From: Candidatus Omnitrophota bacterium
Lineage (GTDB): Bacteria; Omnitrophota; Gorgyraeia; B26-G9; JBDRCZ01
Direction: 5' to 3'
Assembly (NCBI GenBank): GCA_043821285.1
Contig: JBDRCZ010000027.1
Coordinates: 18,988-82,987, forward strand
DNA length: 64,000 nt
Below, piece by piece: positions 25,233 through 51,683 of the stretch (position 1 is the first letter of the stretch; each line of letters begins with the position of its first letter). The notes under the pieces are model-generated. The model was not told the origin of the DNA, ran no database searches, and saw nothing but the letters and a program-made list of their open reading frames with translations. The position numbers and the translations under genes were made by a program.

Positions 25233-25261
25233 CTTGAAAAAATACGATTTATATGATATAC
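25233..25261 (+). promoter_or_regulatory. Candidate sigma70-like promoter of the giant gene (TTGAAA - 17 bp - TATACT)
   Basis: Hexamers are seen directly, ~90 nt upstream of the ATG at 25353. An SD AAGGTGA lies 5 nt before the ATG. Confidence 0.4.
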
Positions 25262-25352
25262 TTTGTAATACTTATAATTACTATTTAAAATATTTTATAA
25301 AGTCGCTTAACATATTAAAACGATTATAAGTTACAAAAAAAGGTGATGAATC

Positions 25353-25460
25353 ATGACAGGCCTAAAACACAAAATATGGTTTAAGGCAATAGCATTCATT
25401 TTAATCCAGGCGTTTTTATGCCTGGATTTGTCATTTGCCGCTGGCGGCGATTTGAAAAAT
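25353..25460 (+). other. Conserved N-terminal leader (signal-peptide-like: K/R n-region, hydrophobic IAFILIQAFLCLDL core, AxA-like SFA|AGG site)
   Basis: Near-identical leaders start the genes at 47675, 51255 and 55592. Confidence 0.8.
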
Positions 25461-28400
25461 GTAAATTCTCTGCTCGCACCGACAATAAAATTAGATGAAT
25501 TAGAAGAAGTATTTAATAAAAAATATGTTGCAGAATCTCCAGAAGAACAGATACTTACCCAGAATTTTAATATCAAATTAAGAAAAACTAAAAAAACTAC
25601 AGAACAAGGCACCGCAGTTTCGATTACAGAAGAGCAAGCGGAGTGTATTAGAGCTGCGAGAACGGGTCTGCTTAATGAGTTTACAAACAAAGTATTTAAA
25701 CGTTATTTGACAGCAGTGCAGATAAATGTTCGCGAATTTTTGCCAAACATGGCTCAGCATATGAGCCGAGCGGAGATTAATATAGATGTAGTTGTCTTGG
25801 GTAATGAGACTGCAGTACGGCTTGCCTTATACCACGGAGCACTGCATGGCATTTTAGCTGAGGAGCGGGGGACAGCAGAAACACCGGAAGAGCGCTTTTT
25901 AGAAGAGGTATTTGTTGTACAAAAAGAATTAGAATATTTAAACAGCCTTTCAGAAAAAGAACAGGATAATTATCTAAAATTTTTGAAAAACTCCTACAGA
26001 ATAAACCACGCGGCATTTTTAAAATTATATAGCCGGTATAAAGAAAAGGTAAAAGAAGCAGAGGATAAGGGAGAGGCTCCAGACTTAAGAGTAATTCTGA
26101 GCATGATTGCCAGTTATGTGAAACAAGTCTCCCGGCGTGATAATGACTTTGGTCAAATAAACTTTGATATGCGCACAAATAAGGCCAAGGATGAGGTTCG
26201 TAAGGTAGTCGAGGGGATAGAGATAGCAAAGGAAACTTCTGCTGGAGCAGAGACATCAGAAGCAGACGTTGAGCCTAACACAGCAGCAATATCAGCAGAG
26301 GAATTAGAAGAAGAGGCAAAAACGTTGATAAAACGTTTTATTGATATTGTGTTAACGGTGACAGGGATTAATTTAATAAAAAGAATATACAATTATTTAC
26401 GTGAAAAGTTGTATTTATGGAACAAATCAAGAAAGCAAAGAAAGATTGAAAGACGGAATGGGGAGCTGGAGAAAATTGATCAGGATGACCCGGATTATCA
26501 AGACACGCTGTTTAAACTCTGGAAATTACAGGGATATGACATTAAATCCCTTAGACCACTATATGCATTAGCCAGACGCGTGGATAAAAGATATGCTGCA
26601 CTGAAGCAAGAACTGGAGACAGGTAATGAGCATATGATTGCCGGGAAGAGTAGAGCATTAAAAGACACAGTAACCCTACGGGTGAATAAACTTGCAGAGA
26701 ATGATACCAGAAATAGAAGCAAATTATTAGAACAGGTACTTAATGAAAATAATTATGCGCTTTTGATTGAGGCATTAGCACTGGTACAGGCTGCATTTAA
26801 CCAGGTTAAAGAGATTAAATTATATGATGTACAGATTATTGCAGCCATTGCCGCAAATAAAGGTGATGGGCAGATTATTAGATTATTACCAGGGGAAGGA
26901 AAGACTTATGTCGGAGCGGCGTATGCCTACCTTAACACTCTTGATGGTGCGAAGGTGCACATGCATACTACTTCTGAGTATTATGCTAAACGTGATGCTG
27001 AAGATGTGCGCGGAGTGTTAGAACTTTTAGGCTTAAGCGCTGCATGTTTAGAAAAAGAGAATGAGGAGAAAAAAGAGGCATATGCGGCCGATGTTCTCTA
27101 CGGGGAGAAATCTGAATTCGGGTTTGATTACTTAAAAGACAATTTGAAATATGAGTCTAAAGAAAAAGTTATGCATGGTCTATACCGGGCAATGGTAGAT
27201 GAGGTGGATTATAATATCCAAGATGATGGACGTACGCCACTGATAATCTCAGCAAGAAGTGTGGAAAATATTTCCGAAGTACTTTATATTGCCGTGAATG
27301 ATGTAGTAGCAGGACTTATCCGGGAACAAGCGGAACAAGAGCTTGAAGAAGATGAAAGATATTATGTGCTGGAGAATTTACCCGGCGATACGACTCCTGA
27401 AAAAGCTGCGAATTATACAACTCATTCTGTTGTGTTTACTGAGACAGGATTAAAAGCATTTGAAAAGCGTCTTTTAGAAAAAGGGTTAGCGGAGTTCTCA
27501 AAAGATGATTTTTTATTTTCTAAGACCCATTATTACATTTTTAGTATGGCGGTGCAGGCGCTGCGGGCGCATAAATTATGGTGTATAGACAAAGATTATT
27601 GTATTAATGAGGATAAAAAAGTTGAGCAAGAAAAAGATAGTCAAGAAGGAGATCAAAGGGCAGATACAAAAGATAAAGAGCCTAAAAAAGGACAGGTTGT
27701 ATTGATTGATGAAAGCTCGGGCCGTCTGATGGAGGGCCGGACATTAAGCCATGGGCTGCATCAGGCAATTGAGGCTAAACACCTAAGAGAAGTAATTACA
27801 GCTGATGAAAGGACTACACTTGAAATTAAAACGATTACCCCGCGTTCAGAAGCACAGGGCTCGATTACGGTAGAGTCATTTTATAAATTATATGAAAAAT
27901 TATCTGGAATGAGCGGGACTGTGGATGAAAATGAGGCCAGGCTCTGGGGACGGCAGGGTAAAGAAGTGGTAAGGGTTCCTTCAAATACCCTGCGCCAGCT
28001 TAAGGAGCATGCGGATAGATTATATCTTACCAACAGAGAAAGATTTGCGGCAATGGCAGAGGCGGCACAAGACAAGCAGACCAGAGGACAGCCAGTTGTG
28101 CTCGGGGTATTAACTCCCGAGGATGCGGATTTATTAAGCGGTATGATAGAGGAGCTTGGCATTGAGCATGAAACATTAGATGCGCGTAATCAAAAAGATG
28201 AAGAGCGGATAATTGCGCATGCCGGAAGAAAAGGCCGGGTTACGATTGTTACGAATATCGCGGGCCGGGCAACAAATATTGTTTTAGGCGGTAAAAAAGA
28301 AATACGTATTCAAGAATTAATATCAGAAGAGAGTCTCTCAGCAGAAACAGCAGAGAAAAGATATAAAGATGAAAAGCAGGAAGTTATTGCATTAGGCGGG

Positions 28401-31400
28401 TTATGCGTTTTTATTGCTGGTAGGCAGCCGAGTTCACGCGGGGATGAACAGTTTGAGACTAGAGCCGCACGGCAAGGCCAACCAGGAGAAAGCGGGCATT
28501 TTCTTTCAGCCGATGACCCGCTATTTGAACAAACCGGCACAAATAAAAAGGTTAGGGAATTAATCGAATATTATCAGAGCGAAGAAGGTAAAGGGGTGGT
28601 TGTCACCCATGTATTTAGAAAAGTTATCCATGAGGCACAAAAGAGATTATCACAGGTGCGGTTGCATGAGAAAAAGCAAACACAAAAATACGAAGAAGTA
28701 TTAGCAAACCAGCGGGAGACCTTTTATCGGTTAAGAGACAGGTTCTTGGAGGAGCCGCAGGAAACATTGCTTGAATTTGTGGAACAGGCGATTGATCTAA
28801 TATTTAGAGATGCGGAAGATATTGAAAAACAATTAGCGCTTGATCCTGAGCTTGCAAAATATAAAACAGGAATTTTAGATGAGGTAAATGAGATAAAAAA
28901 ACAAGGAAAAGATATAAAAGATATAGCAAGAAATGAGGGGATTGTTAGAGAAGATGAATTAAGTAGACTTACAAATTCAGGTGTATTGCGTTTAATGTTA
29001 CAGCGCCAATTTATTAGAGACAAATTTGCTGTTTTTTTAAATATTGGTCTTACAAATGAACAATTAACGTTTTCTAAGGAGCAACTTAAAAATGCAGTAA
29101 CGCAGGCATTAGAACACAGGGCAATATTAGCTAGGCTGATATTGCAGATGTTAGATTTATCTTGGCAGAGACACCTTGGGGATATTGAGGAGTTAAAATG
29201 GGCAATTAACTTTCGGCCGGGTGATGAGCAGAAAAAAGCAGCAGAATTTGGCATAGATGCATTTAAAACCTTTCAGGCAATGCGGGATGAAAATTATTTG
29301 GATGTTTGCGGGGTGGTATACAAAGGCTGGAAGAGATATTTTCGTGCGAAAGCAAAAATGATAGGCCGCCAGAAAGAAGAAGATGGAGAAGTGCCAGAAG
29401 AAGTGCAGGAAAGATTAAAAGACTTAGATGAGCGATTAGGTGGTAAATGGGATTTTCTTAGCAGCCGTAGCGGTCAGGCAGCTGCTACGGGAGGAGTGAC
29501 AGTAGTTGGGTTAAGCGGGATAGTCTATGGTTATGCTGCGCCAATGATACAACAGTCACTACATGATGCTAAAATTGAGCAAATGAATGAGGTATTAGAA
29601 GCGCTTCAGGTATTAGATATAACTAAAGCAACGCAGCTAATTGAAAAATATAATTTAGAAGATACTTTTAATCTTGGCGTAAACGAAGAACAATTGCAAC
29701 AGGAAAAAGACCTTAAGATTATAGAAATAGTATTGTCATCAGATTATACAATAGAAGATGAAGAAGGCGGGCGTTATTTAAGTGTTAGCAAAACAGATGC
29801 AGAAACAGGAGAAGAGGAGCAGACAGAGAAAATTGCGCTTACCTCAGAAGACGATGAAAACCTTGTTACGCGGTTAGAAGAGATAAAAAATAATCCGTCT
29901 GAGATAGATAAAGTAGCACAGGTTATCAAGTTAATAATCGAGAAGGGATTATTAGAATCATTAGGTGGTGACGAGGCTGTGGATGCAAATACAGGTACAG
30001 CCACAGCAAATCAAGATGGACAGGAAAATGGAGCTGCTGGTGAGACCGGCGAATTATTATCTGCAGAGGGCGACGAGGTATCAGATGAGCGTGAAGGAGC
30101 AGGGCAAGCTACTGCCGGAGCCGGGGGTAAAGAAGGAGAGGTTTCTATAGATGAGGAAAAGGCAAAGATAGAAATATCGCTACAGCAGATAATAGATGAA
30201 AATGAAGAAGAGACAGTAAGGACGCTATTATTAAAGGCGTTAATTAAAGATCTTATCAGGTCAGAAAATTATACTTATGCAGTACAAGAGACAGATGAAG
30301 GAGTTTATTTAAACATAATCAAAATAGATACGGAAACAGGAGAAAAGGAGCAGATAGAGAAAATTACGATTACCGAGGAACAGAAAACGATAATCGAGAC
30401 AGTGGGAGTAGCAGAAGAGGAGAGGATAAAGGCAGAAAAAAGGGGGCCGCAAAAACCAAGTTTGTCGGATTTATTTTTATCTAGTGCTACGTATTTAGTT
30501 CTCACAATATTATGGCTATACGCTGCGTATCGGAAATACAAGCATGCTAATACAAAAAGAGAACGTTATATTGCCTGTTTAATGGGATTGTTCGGTGTGA
30601 TTTTTGTCGGGGTTGGATTATTAGGTGCTGGGCCAGCTTTTAATTGGCATGCATCACTGTTTGCGCAGGAGGTAATACATCCGGATTTATTAGAAGAACC
30701 TAAGGAAGAGGTGACAGGAGAAGAAATCGAGCTTGAAGAGGAACTGCCGGAGTTAAATTTTCTTGATGAGGTTGAAGAGCTTAAGGATGTAAGAGACTAT
30801 ATTGCAAAGAGATTTGCGGAATTAGAAGAAGATTTACAAAAAGCCATGGGCAGAATAGATGAGATAATTGAAGATGAGTTATTGGCAAAGGTTAGATATG
30901 TACAAGCAGAGATGGATTTAGAAACTGCCGGCGGTAAAGAGGAAGAGGCGCTGCAGGACCTGCGAGATGCCCAGCAGACATATGATCAACAGGTAAATGA
31001 TTTTGAAGCGGCAACGAACGCTCTGATACAGGTATTAAATACAGAGATTGGGTCAGTTGAAGAGATGGTTGAAAAATTAGATAAAAAGATTGCTAATTTT
31101 ACTGCATTGGATGAAAGGTTAGCAGAGCGGTACGAAAAGACAAAAGAGTTAATTAAAGGTTATCAACAAAAATTAGTAGATATCAGAGAGCAGATTGAGA
31201 CAAATGAGACAACACAGGGAGATTTACAAGAGAAAATAAGGCTTTATGAGCAGCTGAATAACGAGATAATTCCCAAACAATTAGCAGATTTAGATGAGAG
31301 TATTGCATTTGATCAAGCGTGTATTGATGCCCTTACAGCAGCCGAAGATAAAATGGCTGGGCTTACAGCTAACCAAGAGGCCGCACGTCAGAAATATATA

Positions 31401-43400: not shown

Positions 43401-46400
43401 AACTCACTTAATTACACTGCCTCCCGGCCGCTTTCAATTATCTGGCAGTCGATTAATTATCATTATCTTAGGCCAACTGCTCCGGCAGGCGGCTGGTATG
43501 GGCAGATTGGCGCGATTGTATTTGACACACTGATACATATCATTTTCTATACTGCGGTTATCTTTATTGGACAGCAGGTAGTTCAACTCTGGCTGGTAGA
43601 TAGGTTTTTATTACCGATTGACTTTTTTGGGACCCTGAAATTAGCTTGTGGGACGTGGATGTTGATAACTGGCTTAGCTATATTATTATATGCCTGCCAG
43701 GAGGGGGTTGTTGCGATAATGAGTTTGTTCCGAACCTTACATTTTCGCGCGGTTGGTATTATATATTTTGTTCTAGCGCTGATTTTAGCAAATTCTGGGG
43801 TGTTATTGCAGCCATTAGTAGATGCCGGGATATTGTCAGCAGGATTAACCGCCGGGATATTCCCCGCGGTAGAGCTATTTCTTGCTAATTCTGTATTTGG
43901 TGTGACATTAGGAATGTGGCTGATTATTGGAGTATTGTTAGTTATATTCTTTCCATCAAAGGTTAAGAGTGTTGCTATACGTCTAATACGTCCAATAATA
44001 CGTTTAATACGTTCAATAATAGGTCTAAAGGAGAAAATATATAAGGATATTCATGACAAGACCGCATATCTATTTCAAGCCGGACAGACGATAATGAGCC
44101 GTGTGTTTAGCGTTGGTGTTGAGCGAGCAACCGAAGAGTTAATGAGCGGCTACCGCCGGCTTATAGAGTTAGAGGCCAAAGATATAATCCAGGGCATTGG
44201 CACAAGGGAAGAATTGAGAGCATATCTTAAGCTTCTGCATACCCGGGAACTTGAATATGAAGTTACCCTCTGGCACCCAATACAATTAGTTGTCGGTGAG
44301 AAGAAAGAAAGAGCAGGCGATGACCCGGAAACCCTTATCCCGCCGCCAGAGGTCCAGATTGTTGTACGTTCTCCCGAGGAGAAAGAACAGATTATCAAGG
44401 CCTGGAACGCAAGAAGGATAATTGTTTCCATGCTTGCGGAGGAGAATAACAGTCATGATACTGGTATTAACATGGTTGAGATGGCATTACAATTAAAACA
44501 AGCAGAATTGGACGATAAAATTATAATGTTCCTGCTAAGTAATAAGTATAGTGATCGTTCAACAGAGCCTTCCCGGGTAAATTATGCTCCAAAAACAGAA
44601 TATGGACAAAGAAACAAGTTTGCCCGGTTAATTCAGGGAGTTACCCAGATTCAGGTAGAGGCGCATTATAACTGGACGACCTTTGGCACTAAGGCGCTGG
44701 CGATGACCGGTATTGATACAAAACCTGACGAGGTTATCCGGATTGATTCTACGGTTACGCTGGATAGAAATGCTAATGCATATAATTTCCCGGCGCATAT
44801 CCGCGATGTAAAGAGAATACGCGCTTCCCGGGATTTGGCCGTGATTGTTCCTACCCGTTCTACCACGAATAACCTGGCGAGTGTTGGCCAGAGCTCGGAG
44901 TTAGTAGAAAGAGGACATGGTAAACATTTAGAAGGCGTAATGTTGCTTGGCGGCACAGGTAGTGAAATTGTCCAGACCGGCTGGGCAAACATTGCCTTAA
45001 TTCTTTACGGCTTAATGCTCTATGCCTATGCCAATCCTAATCAGCCGATATATCCGCCCAGCTCACGGATTAAAGGCTGGAATAGTAATAAAGGATGGTG
45101 GGAGGATTTTTGGAGCCGTAATTACGGGCTTATTCCGATATTCCATAATGCCACGGGTATTTCTGAAGACCTGCAATTAGCCATATCAAATATTAGCGCA
45201 TTAATTGCCTTAGGCTATAGTCCAAAGATTGGCATATCTGAAGCAGACTATTATAAATTAAGAGAGGCCTGGGTTTTGTTAGAACAGTTTACTGCTTTTG
45301 GCCGCTGGGCAAATGGGTGTATGTCCACAGACCAGAGCCAGAGAATACAAGAAGCATTATATTTTGGCTCGCCAAGTTTATATACCAAAGCAGGGGCGGC
45401 TTATCGCGGTAGATTTTTCAGCATGGCTATTCTCTTTTTATCATTTATTGTTGCACTGCCTTTTTCCGTAATCCTTGGTTTTTCATCTTGTATGGGGGTT
45501 ATCCTCTCTTTAGTTAGTCTTGGTGCAATGGCAAATCAGGTGCTTACCTTAAATGGGCTGGTAGCTTATTTAGCCAATGCTGATTTTAACCGCTATATGG
45601 GGGTAATTGGTACGATGATTGCCGGGGGAGCAATTTTCTTATGGGGACTTAATCCGGCACTGCTTATTGTAGGCATGCTCATAGGCGGATATAGTATTGG
45701 TTTTAGCCGCTGGATATACACCCGCGGCCGGGACATCATCCTTTTCCCACAGCAGCTGCTCATTCATGCAGTAGCACAAATTTATAGATTTACCCTGCGT
45801 TTTAACATATCTGCAACTGGTGGTTTTGAAGGTGTAGATATACGGGAACAGCTCGTAAAAAGACCATACGATAATTTTGTTAATATAAAATGGATATTCT
45901 GGTTATTTGGGGTAGGGGGGTATCTTTTAAATTTATATGCCCTGCATGTTAGTGCCACATTAATAAATGTTATCTTTTTATTACCGTCGCTATTATTTTT
46001 CTCGGGGTTATTAATTGGATTATTTGTAACCAGTGTACCTGTTGGCAAGAGTATTGGTGCGTGGAGTTTTTTGCCCAAGACATTAGGTTGGCTGAGCGGC
46101 TATGTTATTTTAGGTTGGTTGCTCAAATGGAGCTTATTAGGGGGTGGATGGTCGCTATTGTCCAGCGGGGGAGTATTATTGATAGCAGCTCTTTTATTGT
46201 CTTGGGTGCTCAGAGACGTGCAGTTTAAGGGAATAAAAAATATAGTTAGCCCCATACATAATTACCTATTTAGTAAAATTGAACGGATGATGCAAAAAAA
46301 GACTGTTAGAAAAGAGTACTTTGCGGGTATTTTAACAGCGGCTCAACAAAATACACTTTTTACAAATCTAATAAATGCAGGCTACATAAATGAGCAGGGT

Positions 46401-47381
46401 GACATTCAAAATAAATTTTTTCAAGGTGACGATAGAATAACCACACCCTCTCAATTGCCATTAACTAATATTGATGGTTGTGAAGATGCGGATGCAGATA
46501 TAAGAGTAAAAATATATGATATTTTACAAAATACTCGCAGTTCCCGGGTTATTTCTGAGTTTGCACGTTCATTCGTGCTTTCGCTAATAGTCTTATTGCT
46601 ATTTTACTGGACACCAGTATTAGGAAGTTTAAATATAATCGGAATGGACGGGCTAAATGTCTTGGTATTTACTAATAACGCATTTTTGGCAGTAGGTATG
46701 TTTTTACTGGCTGTTTTTATCTACTATGGAATTGGGTTGATTATTAGAGGTGCCGAATATCATGGAGTACTGGGCACAAGGTTATTAATTGAAAAGATCT
46801 ACGCGGTGTTTGGGAAGAAAAAGAAAGTAGGCTTAAAGAATGAATTAGATTTTCAATACGGCCGGTTTTTAAGCTTAGAGCAGCAGGATATAATTTCACC
46901 TTTTACAAATATCACACAGGCGGCGGATTATACATTAATTCAGGCGCTTTTTACTGAGGTAAAACTTAATATTAATCTAAAAAGCTATGCTTATGCACGA
47001 CAAAGACTTGAGCTGATAAAACAGTATTTGGATAGATATGATGATGATGAGCAGCCTTACGGAGCACCTGCTCCACAACCTGTCGGTCAGTCTTTAGGGT
47101 ATGCAGGGATACATGGTTTTAATGCACCACAGATTGTATTTTGGCTCTTAGAAAGATTAGGAGTAGATCCTAAAAAGCCACTAGGGAGCAAACTCTGTGA
47201 ATTTCTTGCTGAAACACTAAGTTTTTTAAATGGACAAGGGACTCCTGAACCTCCTGAAAATCCTGAGAAAAGAGAGGAAGCTCTGTCCGTGGCTGATCCT
47301 AATCAGGTGCTGAATGGCAGGATACCAGGAATAGAACGATTACACTTAGGGGATGCATATTTAGTGCAGGAGGCGATTTAA
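25353..47381 (+). CDS. Giant 7,342-aa multidomain protein with the shared leader, a SecA-like ATPase motor, coiled coils, a TM hairpin, a Thr/Pro linker, about 14 tandem repeats, an M23 peptidase domain, DT repeats and a polytopic membrane C-terminus
   Basis: A single uninterrupted 22,029-nt reading frame, with SD and promoter upstream. The domain calls are listed as separate features below. Confidence 0.95.
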   Translation: MTGLKHKIWFKAIAFILIQAFLCLDLSFAAGGDLKNVNSLLAPTIKLDELEEVFNKKYVAESPEEQILTQNFNIKLRKTKKTTEQGTAVSITEEQAECIRAARTGLLNEFTNKVFKRYLTAVQINVREFLPNMAQHMSRAEINIDVVVLGNETAVRLALYHGALHGILAEERGTAETPEERFLEEVFVVQKELEYLNSLSEKEQDNYLKFLKNSYRINHAAFLKLYSRYKEKVKEAEDKGEAPDLRVILSMIASYVKQVSRRDNDFGQINFDMRTNKAKDEVRKVVEGIEIAKETSAGAETSEADVEPNTAAISAEELEEEAKTLIKRFIDIVLTVTGINLIKRIYNYLREKLYLWNKSRKQRKIERRNGELEKIDQDDPDYQDTLFKLWKLQGYDIKSLRPLYALARRVDKRYAALKQELETGNEHMIAGKSRALKDTVTLRVNKLAENDTRNRSKLLEQVLNENNYALLIEALALVQAAFNQVKEIKLYDVQIIAAIAANKGDGQIIRLLPGEGKTYVGAAYAYLNTLDGAKVHMHTTSEYYAKRDAEDVRGVLELLGLSAACLEKENEEKKEAYAADVLYGEKSEFGFDYLKDNLKYESKEKVMHGLYRAMVDEVDYNIQDDGRTPLIISARSVENISEVLYIAVNDVVAGLIREQAEQELEEDERYYVLENLPGDTTPEKAANYTTHSVVFTETGLKAFEKRLLEKGLAEFSKDDFLFSKTHYYIFSMAVQALRAHKLWCIDKDYCINEDKKVEQEKDSQEGDQRADTKDKEPKKGQVVLIDESSGRLMEGRTLSHGLHQAIEAKHLREVITADERTTLEIKTITPRSEAQGSITVESFYKLYEKLSGMSGTVDENEARLWGRQGKEVVRVPSNTLRQLKEHADRLYLTNRERFAAMAEAAQDKQTRGQPVVLGVLTPEDADLLSGMIEELGIEHETLDARNQKDEERIIAHAGRKGRVTIVTNIAGRATNIVLGGKKEIRIQELISEESLSAETAEKRYKDEKQEVIALGGLCVFIAGRQPSSRGDEQFETRAARQGQPGESGHFLSADDPLFEQTGTNKKVRELIEYYQSEEGKGVVVTHVFRKVIHEAQKRLSQVRLHEKKQTQKYEEVLANQRETFYRLRDRFLEEPQETLLEFVEQAIDLIFRDAEDIEKQLALDPELAKYKTGILDEVNEIKKQGKDIKDIARNEGIVREDELSRLTNSGVLRLMLQRQFIRDKFAVFLNIGLTNEQLTFSKEQLKNAVTQALEHRAILARLILQMLDLSWQRHLGDIEELKWAINFRPGDEQKKAAEFGIDAFKTFQAMRDENYLDVCGVVYKGWKRYFRAKAKMIGRQKEEDGEVPEEVQERLKDLDERLGGKWDFLSSRSGQAAATGGVTVVGLSGIVYGYAAPMIQQSLHDAKIEQMNEVLEALQVLDITKATQLIEKYNLEDTFNLGVNEEQLQQEKDLKIIEIVLSSDYTIEDEEGGRYLSVSKTDAETGEEEQTEKIALTSEDDENLVTRLEEIKNNPSEIDKVAQVIKLIIEKGLLESLGGDEAVDANTGTATANQDGQENGAAGETGELLSAEGDEVSDEREGAGQATAGAGGKEGEVSIDEEKAKIEISLQQIIDENEEETVRTLLLKALIKDLIRSENYTYAVQETDEGVYLNIIKIDTETGEKEQIEKITITEEQKTIIETVGVAEEERIKAEKRGPQKPSLSDLFLSSATYLVLTILWLYAAYRKYKHANTKRERYIACLMGLFGVIFVGVGLLGAGPAFNWHASLFAQEVIHPDLLEEPKEEVTGEEIELEEELPELNFLDEVEELKDVRDYIAKRFAELEEDLQKAMGRIDEIIEDELLAKVRYVQAEMDLETAGGKEEEALQDLRDAQQTYDQQVNDFEAATNALIQVLNTEIGSVEEMVEKLDKKIANFTALDERLAERYEKTKELIKGYQQKLVDIREQIETNETTQGDLQEKIRLYEQLNNEIIPKQLADLDESIAFDQACIDALTAAEDKMAGLTANQEAARQKYIDNPITGQKGLISRFKDKLTELNGWITDITTIELPKYDVFITNFNAALQKFNNWLKDFDAGAAKEQAAKTQLEQAKLRYGNPSPPANPTDSNLVNQGWIPALYYDQWWVGVKKGVAEGAQSRAQAELAKAEEGVVQAEELLQSLRAGLDEVRKLPDTIKVPATPTVTPTITPTATVTVTPSPTTTATPLPTGTPSPAATVTPVTSPTGTPIATPSPAPTSEPTTAPATPSPASTTEPAPAAQSQGDTTTETTTTVQLNIGSLNISFARIFGQRGASTGSAGFSIGPYGSGGLACVGLSVMGVLRTADIPDDTTPDTAATTSDTDTTDATDTTTPDGTTDVSPEDTAPVMMDILNAEKIDKVAFFEAMVKVAEFGGATFIQRGGEEDIVIVKDVDGTVLYENSYKEWMGHVGSGHVFVGVSGAKAYREAVTRGGYSEITENNGVRKITYSTVQNGYTELLGSGATAESRTSPTKRYMEVNVHGATVLAQMLTVGGYMQKDYNGNPDIVAVHLSRAVEIDGITSDIFFVTPVATAPPGDPGDPYSAVYPDMTPGIEGTNNVLNAMKGSYSFEVQGDWTVWTSVDVNTGVVTQFRTPAMPQTTGHDFPQTGGLAGVDALLNAIGDETTNRHSYSFEVEENRIVLTVVNVDTGEITTSYLTKAADGTPIGIDIDDKGGVAARSRIKKALENSYAIEIQNVNGKLRAYWTVVDVDTGKVIDDFYTAASSTITPGWDFPLTGGKAGITKIIAALNGSYCILDSNNGVTKWLVVDVTTGAKQYFYTATTGDKPVPGYDIPDIGGKQGLDLIVTRALSKQYEIVLQTDKEVAQWKIYNIATGEEIIGQGFFTAANPNSPAAAGGMIYAVDEDSKYNFDKQGGREDLKNVIFALEHSYIFKDLGDGRIEWTVVSDEADGTYKVTKFFTRKIDNIIPEYKLDTVGGLKAIELILQALNSSYKIVKTENGVTEWLMVDVKTGEVKWFHTVAVDKILPGFDIPKVGGIEAVKMITKGLNSAYRILGEVNGVTNWVIVDPEVPPDKGGLEYFYTVALTEAETDEYPEFKVSKVGGKKLAQQWRDYALPGTYKIGERIGPEAPLTNQNVVRFDGGMATIVRVIDTYTGAVKHVFFSPYMTPEEVEELKQKDPTFVFDMTGGKELYERLYNSQAMALGFSFGLTRDEGGVTVSQQLIIFDPDSEAISNSLYVPFMTEAEWSQNPSTRLDITGGIKLLQRIKLAMENAYKIGEQITVTKDGVNLTLQIVRVWDPHTGEAVKDPLTGEMIDHFYMPVIPEELLDIIFEGREEERKEFEESKTLDLASGYKLIEEIIIKEMLEGVYRLGEQSKEKSHLMDVYLIDPDKLDIDTKYVPFLSEAERAQVPEDDLLAQLLSKVDLVGGLGLNEKDRELLKGTYRIVGRLSEEEGTPEKWGGVVHIYNPKTGEVTEEYRPYLTPDEVALNPDFAIPNVGGIESLENWRSGIIDGYLLRPTPIEVKGERKNSFLVRIDTIDIETGERDQFFVSYMTPEELEKELEFKPPFSVSSRFLREVRNSLDTGGFYLRDRDETDEVVEYLVFDGEGNAARELHVFEIPEEYQRIKIPKATAGRGNFELFKRVLREGGFGKRVSEERLALYSVANGHEELIGHIPYIFGDKEIAKGFEKLEIGETVAFPGVDGAQFMLDMITGYGGYIKRISENVVEMGNTNGEIKYAPYTEEEGEPGMEIGEWVPITGKKAAELMDYLATDSNGGRITRIDEYFSEVKVFYEDRTDRFVVPYVPLKYRSEHEWDELKQRMQEQFGLNEEEMQQIEGVIKELKAEELNIGEYVSIFSLKNAETWRQVNEESGYFVRDGDIVRIYNLKSELIGIAPYQNIAELLRQQKQKEGEEPEELKELADGDWVPIFTAEQAEAIIKLTREGGRVKRLSAYIVELQDEYGNHLMLAPFENPKFRKPGRLEQPTLPVGRSIGVGGAKLPRMYSEPTRDGEGNYIYEVTDLIGNKWTEVWNKNAETIIIIREGKVTQTLAFLGDAVDIPAKTLTIDVDGSKILKEYDHERSRESGMRVYKVTELNDEAMPEDDIITYEYFNITGQLVKTEGLTMDTINHEFLKDGQTDVAKSGEKRNKKGELEETFEFAWRVYMGEDSEGNKIYDNVYKVTEVNDEETTEDDVIKYVQYDSRGEARATYYLGTEVVNGTTVDGTVVIDTGASTDILSPEIQKRLKERIRKRIVERYKNEFVDSYIAEHDLTRENFIKLLDANIVERLKLGVVDNPGFREEFEQEINAYLKSVQQQIEDEVAATYDKTYKDKSLKPIYYFKWNEENKGVDILEGLGTKGFVIDSGVRVFSIEDKHVPFALIQEIDNLGDVTREFGIVDGKEQFKIRFGEGLFIVSQEILQALEETEERGAAYTAKLEQSRFIAKQRVSESQEIQYDALPNEWKEKVDKIIADLKEQGFIPPDPQKLTWMEIRTINPEKPDDVLVTSYQAFSKKDTPVIKIGGQYFKYEGDKQAKYESLIDIEVGYEDKLLSLRFDLDLVDENFNWRKRLEALSYHITPHEEVIIDLYSSLLFKDFRNKTDGFWEQRKHLIKDGFFNYDIDWMLNNLKDIARLKAERTETFNYDTYKYDITLLMALEVPAAPVTYMHITNDKGEDVIIGKAELNDIDFTRRLIKSTNMISFYRDEAGKKKAADIPYISMRDFKGNVGVQFYLTDEGPVLGIYSWDFDKHGISDKSMTVFKTTEGWQLLESAFYEGVASMPLKGLDETESMERVFFFNGIRFAENIGFEVNENDLYIEPSKLQETLVAVLADPVNILDRHKIGKNGEGKLALRLDGYKLDDYGKAMGDPKYVAFVLYKKGALISATEAGPLHFGFGNESYVYLYDPGKGFDLPEEQDVLKGLNAAKYSELSWNAQVQKWLGYDMNSWEESNWVAHAWNPRVESFEKAGTIKPETWARYPGKEKTGIFYDVIDHRAGKEGLYMNAHLISSGVLVIEAYERVDSEFMPDAFNIRRVPQLVIYDPNSAHIQKPIISIEQTSGNSLAEFEVSEPILVKEGDGYIWVVRITVNGYEPFDLFKIVQKTEYRYVAINTGTSHGPVLINNQHLSAPADEPDTSAAVVPMFVNPVPDLATYEIWDFEEHEGHGIDIPVVAGTPVYAIADGEVIFSGEDPNGKKGYAVIYVTEIPDDKGQMEKYAVVNGHLDEHGRIEEGQQIFAGDTIIGKSNGAKYQPGVTQDSTGPHLHLGMWRITGLEHYSNQEIVKAILHYNRKSSIDRQIVPKRRVDPEKVLADAGAVDIKEREKAVALAAAQSSQKTPTPTPQRIAYAYAVNGLPVTLSEFYLHQQTGGAAAQETLQQADLSSEQKNGTDNRALYSQNRAENKTENANNDKRNFVMIIAAFLGSRLIMQCIYWGIRYFGLLPKLRKTEEEKLIYNPKNPMAERRRAEKLLWTKPAFSTYRISPENANQVIHELREKQAAEQAGQAEPEDTIVVIIEADDETIIYNLTPAEADELGRALSGNVVSEEKAGINIKIEVENYTYSEGPLEGNCKEQLRHLYYFIMEWRRLENEWAEDDEHLLGGTDEWLNGLDVFSNLLSFYVRRVVFEGEKDSRITEDSNHIFDRMNKHLGELTVFVRELLQEYKNAATDEERTGISGTIGDVLGEKGIKPRKAEFIIPEKNLRIIQQFIQDTIDGRDTDTDTDTDTDTDTDTDTDTDTDTDTDTDTIVREMQSIIGEQLLVISRDDTKVEVTNNNWEKIVVLISNQLDGVEAADITDVVEKYKLFKKREGYDLLPVFAWFLDPIRLLFMFAFSGLGIAIWTNNDFIGGPTVLQFLPELFSAILALNICGVPFWLLGLAGAVLNYIANKVSEKARYPGENPVISFLPRIVPVSWLFGKDVVKGRYTFEIKEGRGWDPTFWRVASYIFRMVCSLGITLGIWFVVIPNLITPGHDIIQWLIAGIVSLIALLDFFGLFFILVNNALFEGIQEAVESNNTSRQMQQDQGIANRIRGLFMSILRLIPMRGLRFLNSLNYTASRPLSIIWQSINYHYLRPTAPAGGWYGQIGAIVFDTLIHIIFYTAVIFIGQQVVQLWLVDRFLLPIDFFGTLKLACGTWMLITGLAILLYACQEGVVAIMSLFRTLHFRAVGIIYFVLALILANSGVLLQPLVDAGILSAGLTAGIFPAVELFLANSVFGVTLGMWLIIGVLLVIFFPSKVKSVAIRLIRPIIRLIRSIIGLKEKIYKDIHDKTAYLFQAGQTIMSRVFSVGVERATEELMSGYRRLIELEAKDIIQGIGTREELRAYLKLLHTRELEYEVTLWHPIQLVVGEKKERAGDDPETLIPPPEVQIVVRSPEEKEQIIKAWNARRIIVSMLAEENNSHDTGINMVEMALQLKQAELDDKIIMFLLSNKYSDRSTEPSRVNYAPKTEYGQRNKFARLIQGVTQIQVEAHYNWTTFGTKALAMTGIDTKPDEVIRIDSTVTLDRNANAYNFPAHIRDVKRIRASRDLAVIVPTRSTTNNLASVGQSSELVERGHGKHLEGVMLLGGTGSEIVQTGWANIALILYGLMLYAYANPNQPIYPPSSRIKGWNSNKGWWEDFWSRNYGLIPIFHNATGISEDLQLAISNISALIALGYSPKIGISEADYYKLREAWVLLEQFTAFGRWANGCMSTDQSQRIQEALYFGSPSLYTKAGAAYRGRFFSMAILFLSFIVALPFSVILGFSSCMGVILSLVSLGAMANQVLTLNGLVAYLANADFNRYMGVIGTMIAGGAIFLWGLNPALLIVGMLIGGYSIGFSRWIYTRGRDIILFPQQLLIHAVAQIYRFTLRFNISATGGFEGVDIREQLVKRPYDNFVNIKWIFWLFGVGGYLLNLYALHVSATLINVIFLLPSLLFFSGLLIGLFVTSVPVGKSIGAWSFLPKTLGWLSGYVILGWLLKWSLLGGGWSLLSSGGVLLIAALLLSWVLRDVQFKGIKNIVSPIHNYLFSKIERMMQKKTVRKEYFAGILTAAQQNTLFTNLINAGYINEQGDIQNKFFQGDDRITTPSQLPLTNIDGCEDADADIRVKIYDILQNTRSSRVISEFARSFVLSLIVLLLFYWTPVLGSLNIIGMDGLNVLVFTNNAFLAVGMFLLAVFIYYGIGLIIRGAEYHGVLGTRLLIEKIYAVFGKKKKVGLKNELDFQYGRFLSLEQQDIISPFTNITQAADYTLIQALFTEVKLNINLKSYAYARQRLELIKQYLDRYDDDEQPYGAPAPQPVGQSLGYAGIHGFNAPQIVFWLLERLGVDPKKPLGSKLCEFLAETLSFLNGQGTPEPPENPEKREEALSVADPNQVLNGRIPGIERLHLGDAYLVQEAI
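26700..28830 (+). other. SecA-like preprotein-translocase ATPase motor (NBD1 - PPXD insert - NBD2 - start of helical scaffold)
   Basis: Colinear matches to SecA in order: LLPGEGKT (Walker A, cf. SecA MRTGEGKT); YAADVLYGEKSEFGFDYLKDN ... MVDEVDYNIQDDGRTPLIIS (cf. [21 protein letters not shown] ... [20 protein letters not shown]); LIDESSGRLMEGRTLSHGLHQAIEAKH; FYKLYEKLSGMSGT; TNIAGRATNIVLGG (cf. TNMAGRGTDIVLGG); GGLCVFIAGRQPSSRGDEQFETRAARQGQPGES. Confidence 0.9.
30460..30650 (+). other. Pair of transmembrane helices (internal TM hairpin) in the giant protein
   Basis: ATYLVLTILWLYAAY and CLMGLFGVIFVGVGLLGAG are strongly hydrophobic ~20-aa stretches flanked by basic residues. Confidence 0.6.
31870..32420 (+). 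repeat. Thr/Pro-rich low-complexity linker (PT repeats) followed by a Thr/Asp-rich stretch
   Basis: PATPTVTPTITPTATVTVTPSPTTTATPLPTGTPSPAATVTPVTSP ... followed by TTPDTAATTSDTDTTDATDTTTPDGTTD. This is a typical extracellular flexible linker. Confidence 0.85.
33080..36040 (+). repeat. About 14 degenerate tandem protein repeats (~65-90 aa each), consensus ... SY-x-I ... W-x-V-V-D-V-x-T-G-E/K ... F-Y/F-T ... P ... D-I/F-P ... G-G ... A-L-N
   Basis: Recurring blocks include WTVVDVDTGKV ... FYTAA ... DFPLTGGKAG ... ALNGSY; WLVVDVTTGAKQYFYTAT ... DIPDIGGKQG ... ALSKQY; WLMVDVKTGEVKWFHTVA ... DIPKVGGIEA ... GLNSAY. They were identified by eye in the translation. Confidence 0.75.
40700..41080 (+). 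other. M23/LytM-family zinc metallopeptidase domain (peptidoglycan endopeptidase-like)
   Basis: The HxxxD motif (HEGHGIDIP) and the HxH motif (GPHLHLGMW) sit ~100 aa apart, with Gly-rich beta-strands between them (AIADGEVIFSG). This is the canonical M23 active-site arrangement. Confidence 0.8.
42405..42494 (+). repeat. Perfect hexanucleotide microsatellite (GACACT)x15, encoding (Asp-Thr)15 in frame
   Basis: Counted directly: 15 uninterrupted GACACT units. The unit length is a multiple of 3, so slippage changes length but not frame. Confidence 0.95.
42670..47381 (+). other. Polytopic integral-membrane C-terminal region (~1,570 aa, more than 20 hydrophobic helices interspersed with soluble loops)
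   Basis: Long runs of hydrophobic 18-25-aa segments, for example LLFMFAFSGLGIAIW, ICGVPFWLLGLAGAVL, LGITLGIWFVVIPNLI and GVLLVIFFPS, with many Trp/Gly. A short IRLIRPIIRLIRSII motif follows one helix. Confidence 0.75.
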
Positions 47382-47575: not shown

Positions 47576-47674
47576 GCAATTCTAAAATTCGAAGATTAAA
47601 AAATTTGTTTATTTGATGATTTTATTTGGATTTTGTCATTTGACATTTGGAATTTAACTATATGGAGGAATATT

Positions 47675-51254: not shown

Positions 51255-51352
51255 ATGTGTCAATTAAAGCAAAATATCTTATTTAAAATAATAGCGGTAG
51301 TACTGATAAATGCCTTTTTCTGTATGGATATTGCCTGGGGCCGGCCTATAGC
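51255..51352 (+). pseudogene. Decayed third copy of the shared leader (MCQLKQNILFKIIAVVLINAFFCMDIAW-), frameshifted and truncated; the rest of the 255-aa ORF is spurious read-through over the antisense brnTA
   Basis: The leader and 5' UTR (GTATTTGGTGAGATATG) are homologous to the copies at 47675 and 55592. After GCCTGGG the sequence loses ~25 nt relative to the paralogs, and the frame changes. The downstream ORF body overlaps two well-supported minus-strand genes. Confidence 0.6.
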
Positions 51353-51410
51353 ACTGCTTCACACCGATAGTATCGGAATTCCTGTTGGGAACTTAGTGAT
51401 TTATCTGCGA

Positions 51411-51683
51411 TTAGGAATGCCGGAGATGATGCCGTTCTTTAGCCAGGCGTTCACTGATCCAAGAACGGATAAGACTAAGATACCCCAGCCCCTTATCTGC
51501 AGCGATTTGTTTAAGAGATTTAATCTGCGGTGTATCCAAACGCAAGGAAATGAGTTTCTTTTTTGGACGAACAAATTCTGCTTTTGCTGGGGTGAGTTCT
51601 TCCAAAAATTCTGTGATGCTATGACGATCCCAGAATTTGCGTTCTTCCTCAAGAGACTTAAATTTTGGTATTTTTCTTTTCAT
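51411..51683 (-). CDS. brnA: BrnA-family antitoxin (CopG/RHH-type)
   Basis: 90 aa. The pattern KSLEEERKFWDRHSITEF ... ISLRLDTPQIKSLKQIAADKGLGYLSLIRSWISERL is typical of BrnA antitoxins. It lies immediately downstream of brnT. Confidence 0.8.
   Translation of the reverse strand: MKRKIPKFKSLEEERKFWDRHSITEFLEELTPAKAEFVRPKKKLISLRLDTPQIKSLKQIAADKGLGYLSLIRSWISERLAKERHHLRHS

What the first reader, a model, noticed from the sequence alone, without database searches (positions are those of the whole stretch)
25353..47381. 22-kb giant ORF encoding a SecA-motor / M23-peptidase / repeat / polytopic-membrane megaprotein
A single frame runs 22,029 nt without a stop in an AT-rich genome. The expectation for that by chance is essentially zero, so it is a real gene. 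The encoded 7,342-aa protein combines domains not normally found together. These are a signal-peptide-like leader, a complete SecA-type translocase ATPase, long acidic coiled coils, a Thr/Pro linker typical of cell-surface proteins, a tandem repeat array, a peptidoglycan-cleaving M23 peptidase, an Asp-Thr microsatellite and a >1,500-aa multi-pass membrane domain. An architecture that pairs a translocation motor with a cell-wall hydrolase and its own large membrane module would suit a self-contained export or attack apparatus. Examples are contact-dependent lysis of another cell, or assembly of a surface organelle. Giant genes of this type have been reported in small-celled, possibly host-associated lineages, but the function of the SecA-like module inside them is not established.
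Basis: partly seen in the sequence, partly recalled or inferred. Interest (0 to 1): 0.92.

Follow-up and report, generated by a model that had tools for sequence, protein, structure and literature searches.

The report
Giant SecA–peptidase–glycan-synthase-like membrane protein gene
A real 22-kb bacterial gene encodes one 7,342-residue membrane protein that joins a SecA-type export motor, a long surface stalk carrying a cell-wall-cutting peptidase, and a membrane module predicted to resemble polysaccharide synthases; it is an unusual variant of the giant proteins already described in Omnitrophota-like bacteria.

Summary
ORF 25353-47381 (+) is stop-free and has uniform in-frame codon usage.

Three things are new.
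- No relative of that module carries SecA, M23 or the leader, so this fusion is unique so far.
- The ~55-residue N-terminal leader recurs on three downstream ORFs and on 14 ORFs in seven metagenome loci. One of those is another SecA-bearing protein of at least 3,409 aa. The others carry PGK, PPDK, PGM, methyltransferase and HEAT domains, the repertoire reported for Omnitrophota giant proteins.

Verdict: a genuine gene and a new variant of a known kind. The topology of the SecA module, its function, and the source organism remain unresolved.

The parts
25234..25262 (+). Promoter-like site TTGAAA-17-TATACT with a TG extension, about 90 nt upstream of the start. An AGGTGAT ribosome-binding site lies just before the ATG.
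   Evidence: consensus match only
25353..47381 (+). Giant ORF, 7,342 codons plus stop
25353..25520 (+). Conserved N-terminal leader, aa 1-56: K/R-rich start, hydrophobic IAFILIQAFLCLD, SFA|AGG, then an LAP...L..VF motif. It is shared with ORFs starting at 47672, 51255 and 55592 and with 14 ORFs in loci L002-L008.
25521..26579 (+). N-terminal region of unknown fold, aa 57-409. It contains a weak hydrophobic segment (aa 328-343) followed by a very basic stretch.
26580..29342 (+). SecA-paralog module, aa ~410-1330: NBD1, PPXD, NBD2, scaffold/wing and two-helix finger. Walker A GEGKT is at aa 514-518 and Walker B DEVD at aa 616-619. Motif V is AGRATN (from aa 970). The two-helix-finger tip is FRPGDEQ (from aa 1287), with Gly in place of E. 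coli Tyr794.
29484..29552 (+). Weak Gly-rich hydrophobic segment, aa 1378-1400, directly after SecA. It is positionally homologous to a strong transmembrane segment (aa 1153-1182) in the L002 relative and replaces the SecA zinc-finger tail.
29553..30470 (+). Acidic region, aa 1401-1706, with two related ~55-aa units (aa 1444-1499 and 1617-1676)
30471..30626 (+). Transmembrane hairpin, aa 1707-1725 and 1740-1758, with the basic loop RKYKHANTKRERY
30630..31832 (+). Acidic helical, coiled-coil-like region, aa ~1760-2160. Heptad periodicity is 5.4 times background over aa 1790-2095.
   Evidence: crude test
31833..32462 (+). Thr/Pro-rich linker (aa ~2161-2262) followed by a Gly/Thr/Asp-rich stretch (to aa 2370)
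33045..35978 (+). Main array of 12 HMM-detectable divergent units of 57-78 aa, aa 2565-3542, of the form GG-helix-sY-strands-W.VVDV.TGE-F.T-P.fD.P. No Pfam family matches.
35979..37952 (+). Degenerate repeats and beta-rich duplicated units, aa 3543-4200
38469..40604 (+). Domain next to the membrane on the extracytoplasmic side, aa 4373-5084, shared with two relatives of the C-terminal module (P0023, P0030)
40755..41069 (+). Peptidase_M23 domain, aa ~5135-5239. H-G-I-D, the central His (NGHLDE) and HLH are present. No relative of the C-terminal module has this domain.
41499..41555 (+). Transmembrane segment, aa 5383-5401, followed by a strongly basic flank that is predicted to be cytoplasmic
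41880..42341 (+). Conserved helical cytoplasmic domain of the module family, aa 5510-5663 (EWRR...WLNGLD...EDSNH)
42405..42494 (+). (GACACT)15 microsatellite encoding (Asp-Thr)15, aa 5685-5714
42690..43988 (+). First transmembrane bundle of the module, aa 5780-6212, about 8-10 helices
44058..45422 (+). Predicted GT-A-like cytoplasmic domain, aa 6236-6690. Family-invariant motifs are DRN (aa 6471-6473), R.T (6502-6504), GW (6543-6544), SED (6604-6606), K.RE (6635-6638) and RW (6651-6652).
45423..46757 (+). Second transmembrane bundle (aa 6691-6960) and a C-terminal transmembrane pair (aa 7064-7135)
47672..51160 (+). Downstream leader-bearing ORF (1,162 aa from the ATG at 47672): leader, two transmembrane segments, a partial PGK-like domain, two more transmembrane segments
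51255..52022 (+). Short leader-bearing ORF. The sequence after the leader has no family match and may be a remnant.
55592..60343 (+). Leader-bearing ORF of 1,583 aa with no Pfam or NCBIfam match

Best explanation
This is one genuine gene for a 7,342-residue, inner-membrane-anchored, envelope-spanning multi-enzyme protein. It is of the kind described for Omnitrophota-type giant proteins and looks like a fusion of two parts that occur separately elsewhere.

Part 1 (aa 1-~1400) is a conserved leader plus a SecA paralog. The same pairing occurs in the protein of at least 3,409 aa at L002.

Part 2 (aa ~1700-7342) has the plan of a rare family of 2,000-7,500-aa proteins:
- a very long acidic extracytoplasmic stalk, here with a coiled-coil-like region, a Thr/Pro linker, 12 repeat units in the main array and an inserted M23 endopeptidase;
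- a transmembrane segment;
- a conserved cytoplasmic helical domain;
- a GT-A-like domain held between two transmembrane bundles, as in processive polysaccharide synthases.

Proposed mechanism; every step below is inferred.
1. The SecA module has intact ATP-binding and arginine-finger residues. It sits at the cytoplasmic face, tethered by the hydrophobic segments flanking it rather than by the zinc-finger tail of canonical SecA.
2. It uses ATP to help thread the ~3,600-residue stalk of its own chain across the membrane. It may also act on the neighbouring proteins that carry the same leader.
3. The M23 domain, close to the membrane on the outside, cuts peptidoglycan cross-links. The target could be the cell's own wall, to let the stalk pass, or the wall of another cell.
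4. The C-terminal module polymerises a glycan from a cytoplasmic nucleotide sugar and extrudes it through its own transmembrane channel.

Shown: the ORF, the domain identities for SecA and M23, the family relationships, the shared leader, and the motif conservation. Inferred: the topology, the enzymatic activity of each module, and the coupling between them.
For: - The ORF is real and compositionally uniform.
- SecA: all four Pfam domains match. E is 6e-94 to E. coli SecA structures, with the alignment running from NBD1 to the two-helix finger. Identity is 30% over E. coli residues 63-828. GEGKT, DEVD and the Arg of motif V are kept, as are the counterparts of R566 and R574.
- M23 scores above the Pfam cut-off, and HLH and the central His are kept.
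- C-terminal module: 142 representatives in 1.84e9 proteins. The best are 2,000-7,500-aa proteins with the module at their C-terminal end. Homology is colinear over aa ~5510-7250.
- The invariant motifs sit where the synthase motifs sit. DRN follows a beta-strand (the DxD position). SED opens a helix (TED and the finger helix). RW ends a helix (QxxRW).
- Topology: the loop of the 1707-1758 hairpin and the flank after TM 5383-5401 are strongly basic. This places the stalk and M23 outside and the GT-A-like domain inside. The weak segment at aa 1378-1400 has a strong transmembrane counterpart in L002, which puts SecA on the cytoplasmic side.
- Known kind: the literature describes giant, transmembrane-rich proteins with SecA, peptidase and GT domains. 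The leader-tagged relatives carry HEAT, PGM/PMM, PPDK and methyltransferase domains, as reported for Archaeovorins.
Against: - The GT-A assignment rests on a medium-to-low-confidence model (mean pLDDT 59), and no sequence method supports it. There is no Pfam or NCBIfam hit for the giant or for any of 17 family members at E <= 10. A family profile finds nothing in PDB sequences. hhalign against E. coli BcsA finds nothing.
- The canonical DxD is DRN, and the first UDP-binding Asp position appears to be Asn.
- The leader has every classical feature of a cleavable Sec signal peptide, which would put SecA outside. A cytoplasmic SecA needs two marginal hydrophobic segments (aa 328-343 and 1378-1400, hydropathy 1.4-1.5). 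The first of these has no counterpart in L002.
- Tyr794 at the two-helix-finger tip, which is important for polypeptide pushing in canonical SecA (my own knowledge: Erlandson et al. 2008), is Gly.
- No SecY-like gene or type II secretion genes lie in the window.
- The organism could not be identified.
- The M23 zinc motif is H-x2-D rather than H-x3-D.
Confidence: 0.55

Rival explanations
1. The leader is a true cleavable signal peptide. The SecA module is exported across the inner membrane, along with the PGK, PPDK, PGM, methyltransferase and ATP-grasp domains of the other leader-tagged proteins. These domains then work in an extracytoplasmic compartment or inside or against another cell. The exported PGK and PPDK domains would regenerate the ATP that the external SecA-like motor uses.
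For: - The leader has a K/R-rich n-region, a ~13-residue h-region and a c-region ending (A/S/V)-x-A before GG, in 18 proteins.
- In L002 nothing hydrophobic separates the leader from SecA. The flanks of its post-SecA transmembrane segment are acidic on the SecA side and basic on the far side.
- Counting only the strong transmembrane segments of the giant gives a topology that is fully consistent with the positive-inside rule and has SecA outside.
- The 2026 Omnitrophota preprint reports signal-peptide-plus-transmembrane topologies that put metabolic domains on the outer face.
- ATP-producing enzymes (PGK, PPDK) are among the leader-tagged proteins.
Against: - No ATP, SAM or sugar phosphates are expected outside the cytoplasm.
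- The segment after SecA is homologous to a clear transmembrane segment in L002. Counting it puts the giant's SecA on the same side as the GT-A-like domain and the basic flank at aa 5402-5440.
- In the PGK protein, the basic flank after its third transmembrane segment places PGK inside.
- West-Roberts et al. themselves warn that overlooked transmembrane segments may mislocalise such domains.
Confidence: 0.2
2. The C-terminal module is not a glycosyltransferase. It is some other membrane machine, such as a transporter, channel or scaffold, and the similarity to synthases comes from a weak model.
For: - Mean pLDDT is 59, and Foldseek TM-scores are 0.2-0.3 with E no better than 4e-3.
- There is no sequence or profile support.
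- The N-terminal half of the module matches only generic helical bundles.
Against: - Two different structure-comparison programs independently rank the same enzyme class first, out of 48,000 and 350,000 chains.
- The invariant SED and RW motifs fall at the positions of the synthase TED and QxxRW motifs.
Confidence: 0.25
3. The 22-kb ORF is an assembly or sequencing artefact. Either two or more adjacent genes (a leader-SecA gene and a stalk-synthase gene) were fused by a lost stop or frameshift, or there is a chimeric join.
For: - The two halves occur separately elsewhere. None of the 142 module relatives has SecA or the leader.
- Read coverage could not be examined.
- A 90-bp perfect microsatellite lies inside the ORF.
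Against: - In-frame codon usage is uniform across all tiles, and there are no stops.
- No long DNA repeat lies at the presumed junction, aa 1330-1760.
- The microsatellite unit is 6 nt, so it is frame-neutral. It also sits inside a region that is colinear in the relatives.
- The L002 SecA protein likewise continues for at least 2,200 residues past SecA.
- Giant SecA fusions are documented from long-read assemblies.
Confidence: 0.05

Closest known systems
Omnitrophota giant proteins: the 'Archaeovorin-type' class of West-Roberts et al. 2023 (bioRxiv 10.1101/2023.11.21.568195) and the SecA_DEAD long-protein cluster of bioRxiv 10.64898/2026.06.07.730766
   Same: - A gene of at least 20 kb.
- A signal-peptide-like start and many transmembrane segments.
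- SecA_DEAD and SecA_PP_bind domains inside a giant chain.
- Peptidase and glycosyltransferase-type content.
- Large parts with no recognisable family.
- Relatives tagged with the same leader carry HEAT, PGM/PMM, PPDK and methyltransferase domains, and L002 has a PilZ neighbour, all as reported for these proteins.
   Different: - The SecA module here is N-terminal and includes the scaffold/wing domain (SecA_SW, E 5e-18). The published ones are said to lack it and to lie after C-terminal transmembrane anchors.
- No type II or type IV secretion genes flank this gene.
- The C-terminal synthase-like module and the M23 domain are not mentioned in either paper ('M23' occurs 0 times).
- At 7,342 aa it sits at the small end of the class.
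- Omnitrophota origin could not be tested.
Canonical SecA and accessory SecA2 translocase ATPases
   Same: It has NBD1, PPXD, NBD2, HSD/HWD and IRA1. Walker A and B and the motif V and VI arginines are conserved. Identity to E. coli SecA is 30%. As in SecA2 systems of Firmicutes, whose substrates carry the KxYKxGKxW signal (my own knowledge), a SecA paralog is found together with proteins that share a distinctive N-terminal signal.
   Different: - It is embedded in a 7,342-aa chain and scores below every NCBIfam SecA and SecA2 cut-off.
- Tyr794 is Gly.
- The zinc-finger tail is replaced by a hydrophobic segment, and 409 residues precede the module.
- No SecY2 or Asp genes lie nearby.
- The SecA paralog itself carries the leader.
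Membrane-integrated processive GT2 polysaccharide synthases (hyaluronan synthase, chitin synthase, BcsA/CesA, CslF6, cyclic beta-1,2-glucan synthase Cgs)
   Different: - There is no detectable sequence or profile similarity.
- DxD is DRN.
- There are many more transmembrane helices, and an extra conserved cytoplasmic helical domain.
- The family is absent from Pfam and NCBIfam.
M23 (LytM/lysostaphin-type) peptidoglycan endopeptidases
   Same: It passes the Pfam Peptidase_M23 cut-off, has HLH and the central His, and is predicted to lie outside the cytoplasm.
   Different: The first zinc motif is one residue shorter (H-G-I-D). Similarity to solved M23 structures is only weak (E 2.5e-3). The domain is inserted into a giant stalk.

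Membership tests
SecA translocase ATPase | NBD1 with Walker A (GxGKT) and Walker B (DEVD) | tested here: met
   GEGKT at aa 514-518 and DEVD at aa 616-619. SecA_DEAD E 2e-59.
SecA translocase ATPase | Preprotein cross-linking domain inserted in NBD1 | tested here: met
   SecA_PP_bind E 1.9e-15, in two stretches around an acidic insertion.
SecA translocase ATPase | NBD2 with motif V and VI arginines (E. coli R509, R566, R574) | tested here: met
   P-loop_SecA E 7e-45. The arginines are kept in AGRATN and SRGDEQFETRAARQG. D512 is Asn and R572 is Glu.
SecA translocase ATPase | Helical scaffold/wing domains and the two-helix finger with an aromatic tip (Tyr794) | tested here: inconclusive
   SecA_SW E 5e-18, and the alignment runs through the finger. 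The tip residue is Gly here and Lys/Arg in L002.
SecA translocase ATPase | C-terminal zinc-finger tail (SecB and lipid binding) and curated equivalog score | tested here: not met
   There is no CPCG...CH motif; a hydrophobic segment takes its place. The score is 462 bits against a cut-off of 814 for PRK12904, and all SecA2 models are also below their cut-offs.
Omnitrophota giant (Archaeovorin-type) proteins | ORF of at least 20 kb (at least 7,000 aa) with many transmembrane segments and a signal-peptide-like start | tested here: met
   The size definition is quoted.
Omnitrophota giant (Archaeovorin-type) proteins | Divergent SecA_DEAD and SecA_PP_bind without scaffold/wing, located after C-terminal transmembrane anchors | tested here: not met
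   SecA is N-terminal and SecA_SW is present. The L002 relative does lack a SecA_SW hit.
Omnitrophota giant (Archaeovorin-type) proteins | Encoded in an Omnitrophota genome | not testable with these tools
   The window has no rRNA or tRNA genes. Genome and metagenome scans and exact-protein look-ups found no close relative. Only the domain repertoire of leader-tagged relatives is consistent.
Omnitrophota giant (Archaeovorin-type) proteins | Flanked by type II/IV secretion or pilus genes and small PilZ genes | tested here: not met
   No such genes are among the 20 window ORFs scanned. A PilZ gene does lie near the L002 relative.
Peptidase M23 | Pfam model above the gathering score | tested here: met
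   42.6 bits against 28.7.
Peptidase M23 | Zinc ligands HxxxD and HxH, plus the catalytic His | tested here: inconclusive
   HLH and NGH are present. The first motif is H-G-I-D, one residue short, and aligns to zoocin A with a gap.
Processive membrane GT2-type polysaccharide synthases | GT-A fold between transmembrane helices that form a channel | tested here: met
Processive membrane GT2-type polysaccharide synthases | Signature motifs D, DxD, (T/G)ED and Q(Q/R)xRW | tested here: inconclusive
   SED and RW are invariant and correctly placed. DxD is DRN and the first D is Asn. I could not obtain a residue-level structural superposition.
Processive membrane GT2-type polysaccharide synthases | Sequence or profile membership (Pfam Glyco_tranf_2_3, Chitin_synth, Cellulose_synt; CAZy GT2) | tested here: not met
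   No Pfam GT hit for 17 members at E <= 10. A PDB profile search and hhalign against BcsA were both negative.
GT48 (FKS1/callose synthase); considered from memory | Closest structural match is FKS1 | tested here: not met
Accessory Sec (SecA2/SecY2) systems | A dedicated SecY2 channel and Asp proteins next to SecA2, with substrates that share a special signal peptide | tested here: not met
   A shared leader exists, but no SecY-like or Asp gene lies in the window.

The most novel reading that the evidence does not exclude
The conserved ~55-residue leader is the address tag of a previously undescribed, lineage-specific sorting pathway, and the SecA paralog inside the giant protein is its dedicated motor. 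A whole set of leader-tagged, cytoplasmic-type enzymes would be delivered to, or anchored at, one envelope site. That set includes PGK, PPDK, PGM/PMM, methyltransferases, ATP-grasp and HEAT proteins, and the SecA giant itself. In the boldest version they are exported, and PGK and PPDK regenerate ATP there for the external motor. The fused M23 peptidase and the glycan-synthase-like module would build or breach the wall at the same spot.
Probability: 0.15. Interest if true: 0.9.

Novelty: new variant of a known kind. Interest (0 to 1): 0.62.

Why it matters
Giant SecA-bearing membrane proteins are among the least understood gene products in bacteria. At 7.3 kaa, this one is small enough to study experimentally.

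It gives three testable handles.
- Its SecA module is nearly canonical, with intact ATPase residues, but has an altered two-helix finger and a transmembrane tether.
- It belongs to a rare, unannotated family of synthase-like membrane modules that sit at the end of multi-thousand-residue proteins.
- A strongly conserved N-terminal leader ties the giant protein to neighbouring genes that encode cytoplasmic-type enzymes.

Working out where these domains sit relative to the membrane would settle an open paradox that is also noted in the Omnitrophota literature. Are ATP- and SAM-dependent domains of giant proteins really placed outside the cytoplasm?

Tried and rejected
- **The search for homologous proteins.** The whole protein was too long and aa 1-5000 timed out. 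Two sub-queries returned nothing because the 8,000-candidate word filter saturated. A family profile recovered only four fragments, one labelled 'Candidatus Binatia'.
- **PepSY-like idea for the repeats (from memory).** No Pfam support at E <= 10. The only hit was a chance-level match to the alpha-lytic protease prodomain, E 0.055.
- **Sequence tests of the synthase reading.** All were negative: phmmer and a family profile against PDB sequences, Pfam on 17 family members, and hhalign against E. coli BcsA.
- **Sliding-window alignment of repeat triplets for structure prediction.** MAFFT produced a staircase, so I abandoned it. The repeat fold stays unknown.
- **Organism identification.** All of the following failed:
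  - the window has no rRNA or tRNA genes;
  - exact-protein look-ups for three housekeeping genes found nothing;
  - genome and metagenome scans with the module core found nothing;
  - the YchF scan found only a 34%-identical Ignavibacteriales hit.
- **afdb50 fold library.** Not available.
- **Chimeric assembly.** I considered this and judged it unlikely, but could not exclude it without reads.
Full report
**1. The observation.** The window holds one ORF at 25353-47381 on the + strand: 7,342 codons with an ATG start. Its translation has a single stop, the terminal one. From the window's base composition a random codon is a stop with probability 0.071, so 7,342 stop-free codons have log10 P of about -236. 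The other five frames across the same stretch carry 214-750 stops.

In-frame codon usage of each 2-kb tile correlates with the pooled usage of 14 other genes of the window at r = 0.71-0.92. The Thr/Pro-linker tile gives 0.52, and out-of-frame values are 0.06-0.41. The whole length therefore looks like coding sequence of the same genome. The ATG is the first start after two in-frame stops. It is preceded by AGGTGAT and by a promoter-like site, TTGAAA-17-TATACT. No long exact repeat lies inside the ORF except (GACACT)15, which is frame-neutral. I could not examine read coverage.

Pfam finds the following in the first 2,500 residues:
- SecA_DEAD, aa 443-864, E 2e-59;
- SecA_PP_bind, E 2e-15;
- P-loop_SecA, aa 884-1077, E 7e-45;
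- SecA_SW, aa 1086-1323, E 5e-18.

It also finds Peptidase_M23 at aa ~5135-5239, at 42.6 bits against a cut-off of 28.7. Nothing else in the protein matches Pfam or NCBIfam.

Against solved structures the SecA module matches E. coli SecA at E 6e-94, from NBD1 to the two-helix finger. A three-way alignment with E. coli SecA fetched from MG1655 shows 30% identity over E. coli residues 63-828. Walker A (GEGKT), Walker B (DEVD) and the motif V arginine are intact, as are the counterparts of R566 and R574. Three features of working SecA are changed:
- Tyr794 at the finger tip is Gly.
- The C-terminal zinc finger is replaced by a Gly-rich hydrophobic segment (aa 1378-1400).
- The module scores 462 bits against the 814-bit equivalog cut-off.

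It is thus a structurally complete but diverged SecA paralog.

The M23 domain keeps HLH and the central His, but its first zinc motif is one residue short. The remaining features are all present:
- a heptad-periodic acidic region, aa ~1790-2095;
- the Thr/Pro linker;
- thirteen HMM-detectable units of 52-78 aa, 12 of them in the main array at aa 2565-3542, with no family match;
- the (Asp-Thr)15 run;
- about 18-20 hydrophobic segments between aa 5780 and 7135.

**3. What the membrane domain is.** I ran an exhaustive HMMER search of 1.84 billion representative proteins with aa 5790-6989. It found only 142 relatives. The best are 25-37% identical and nearly all are 2,000-7,500-residue proteins that carry the match at their C-terminal end.

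BLAST of the giant against all 142 shows colinear homology over aa ~5510-7250. This region comprises a cytoplasmic helical domain, a transmembrane bundle, a ~450-residue soluble domain and a second bundle. Two relatives also share aa 4373-5084. One complete relative of 4,201 aa has no Pfam domain at all, so this is an unannotated family.

An alignment of 17 cores has invariant DRN, R.T, GW, SED, K.RE and RW.GG motifs, and the giant keeps all of them.

- barley CslF6, yeast Chs1, soybean CesA1, Chlorella-virus HAS and bacterial BcsA;
- the cyclic beta-1,2-glucan synthase, at rank 10;
- one non-processive GT2 mannosyltransferase, at rank 2.

Foldseek against 350,542 chains independently ranked chitin, hyaluronan and cellulose synthases and Cgs in its first 23 places. 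The E-values were weak (best 4e-3), with probabilities of 0.8-0.99 for the leading hits.

In the model, DRN follows a strand (the DxD position), SED opens a helix (TED at the finger helix) and RW closes a helix (QxxRW on an interface helix). This is my reading of the secondary-structure string, not a superposition.

Against this reading, no sequence method sees a glycosyltransferase. My first guess, GT48/FKS1, was not borne out. I therefore call the module "processive-synthase-like" with moderate confidence. The N-terminal half of the module gave only generic helical hits.

**4. The fusion is unique so far.** None of the 142 relatives contains a SecA domain, an M23 domain or the leader. In one of the two relatives that share the juxtamembrane domain (P0023), no M23 domain lies between that domain and the transmembrane segment. 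The M23 domain therefore looks like an insertion in this protein.

**5. A shared leader links the giant to its neighbours.** The first ~55 residues recur at the start of three downstream + strand ORFs:
- 47672-51160, with transmembrane segments and a PGK-like domain;
- 51255-52022, a possible remnant;
- 55592-60343, 1,583 aa with no family match.

Similarity at DNA level is confined to the coding leader. No Pfam or NCBIfam model matches it.

A metagenome scan with a leader alignment returned seven loci. A motif scan then found 18 leader-bearing ORFs in the eight sequences, usually in tandem clusters. The consensus is K..(I/L)FK.IA.(I/V)LIQAFL.LD.AWAGG...(T/H)L(S/A)P......L...F.

One of them, at L002, is at least 3,409 aa long and runs off the fetched DNA. 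It has SecA_DEAD, SecA_PP_bind and P-loop_SecA directly after the leader. The others carry PPDK, PEP-utilizer, PGM/PMM plus methyltransferase plus TPR, HEAT, methyltransferase and ATP-grasp domains. L002 is preceded by a PilZ gene and a PAS-HD-GYP gene.

HEAT, PGM/PMM, PPDK, methyltransferases, SecA and PilZ neighbours are exactly what West-Roberts et al. and the 2026 preprint report for Omnitrophota giant proteins. This is the only evidence I have on taxonomy, and it is indirect. All direct attempts failed.

The two SecA modules are each closer to E. coli SecA than to each other: 30% and 35% identity against 24%. A single origin is therefore not established.

**6. Topology and mechanism.** Hydropathy and the positive-inside rule give firm anchors:
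- The loop of the hairpin at aa 1707-1758 (RKYKHANTKRERY) is cytoplasmic.
- The flank after TM 5383-5401 is also cytoplasmic.
- The 3,600-residue stalk with the Thr/Pro linker, repeats and M23 is therefore outside.
- The conserved helical domain and the GT-A-like domain are inside, as their presumed chemistry requires.

The weak segment at aa 1378-1400 aligns with a strong transmembrane segment in L002; both follow an ERLG motif. Counting it puts SecA inside as well. The leader is then the problem, because it has every feature of a cleavable signal peptide. A cytoplasmic SecA needs either the marginal segment at aa 328-343 or an unusual leader topology. L002 has no such segment, and its charge distribution favours SecA outside. 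The same paradox is discussed for Omnitrophota long proteins.

My preferred model, at confidence 0.55, has three parts:
- a membrane-tethered cytoplasmic SecA paralog that helps export its own stalk and possibly the leader-tagged neighbours;
- an external M23 domain that cuts peptidoglycan;
- a C-terminal module that makes and extrudes a glycan.

The main rival, at 0.2, is that the leader-tagged domains, SecA included, really are exported.

**7. Comparison and verdict.** The closest known things are the Omnitrophota giant proteins, which share size, transmembrane content, embedded SecA, and peptidase and GT content. This protein differs in four ways:
- an N-terminal, scaffold/wing-containing SecA;
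- no secretion-system neighbours;
- the M23 domain;
- the fusion to a rare synthase-like module.

It fails the curated thresholds for SecA or SecA2 membership and the sequence tests for GT2 membership, although it plausibly works like both. I rate it a new variant of a known kind, with interest 0.62. It is real, and it is unusual even within its class. It also offers a tractable entry to an open question, but the general phenomenon is already published and the mechanism remains inferred.

Noticed in passing
window 47672-51160, 51255-52022, 55592-60343 (+); loci L002-L008: Three ORFs downstream of the giant gene start with the same ~55-aa leader as the giant protein. The same leader heads 14 ORFs in seven metagenome loci, which carry SecA, PPDK, PGM/PMM, methyltransferase, ATP-grasp and HEAT domains. 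No Pfam or NCBIfam model covers it.
   Followed up: yes
window 47672-51160 (+): A 1,162-aa protein has a partial phosphoglycerate-kinase domain (Pfam PGK, profile positions 73-303 of 379) between two pairs of transmembrane segments. This is an odd membrane-anchored glycolytic-enzyme fusion.
   Followed up: partly
window 51255-52022 (+): The leader is followed by Cys/Phe-rich sequence with no family match. The 120 nt around its start are 74% identical to the start of ORF 55592 (repeat D4). It is probably a decayed paralog.
   Followed up: partly
window 60471-60616 (+): A group II intron D1-D4-4 match (RF02003, 49.1 bits, just at the gathering score) lies right after ORF 55592-60343. No intron-encoded ORF of at least 150 aa lies nearby.
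   Followed up: no
window 9865-9907, 47534-47576, 53671-53713, 55377-55419: A ~43-nt intergenic element (A.TGAAATAAATCAGACAGGATTAAC..GGATAA) is repeated four times. Three copies lie upstream of genes, including two of the leader-bearing ORFs. It may be a shared regulatory or terminator element.
   Followed up: no
window 5201-5244 and 16879-16922; 10026-10070 and 11880-11924: Two pairs of 44-45-nt sequences are 89% identical. The first pair ends in ...GGAGATTCAT.ATG at the starts of the histidine-kinase gene and ORF 16920, suggesting a shared 5' leader with a stem.
   Followed up: no
window 43977-44028: A 21-nt tandem repeat (2.5 copies) inside the giant ORF encodes the amphipathic basic stretch IRLIRPIIRLIRSII. 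This stretch lies at the membrane-to-GT-domain boundary.
   Followed up: no
window 18260-21454 (-): A 1,064-aa protein combines an alpha/beta hydrolase (DLH), a CheR-type methyltransferase and TPR repeats. It lies next to a 250-aa TPR protein.
   Followed up: no
L002 229-585 and 644-2515: A small PilZ protein and a PAS-HD-GYP protein lie upstream of the leader-PGM and leader-SecA genes. PilZ neighbours are reported for Omnitrophota giant genes.
   Followed up: partly
window 52309-53469 and 53736-54191; 546-1754 (-): Several possible mobile or defence-type genes flank the cluster: an ATPase_2/AAA protein, a Polbeta-type nucleotidyltransferase (MNT-like) and an AAA_14/DUF4143 ATPase.
   Followed up: no
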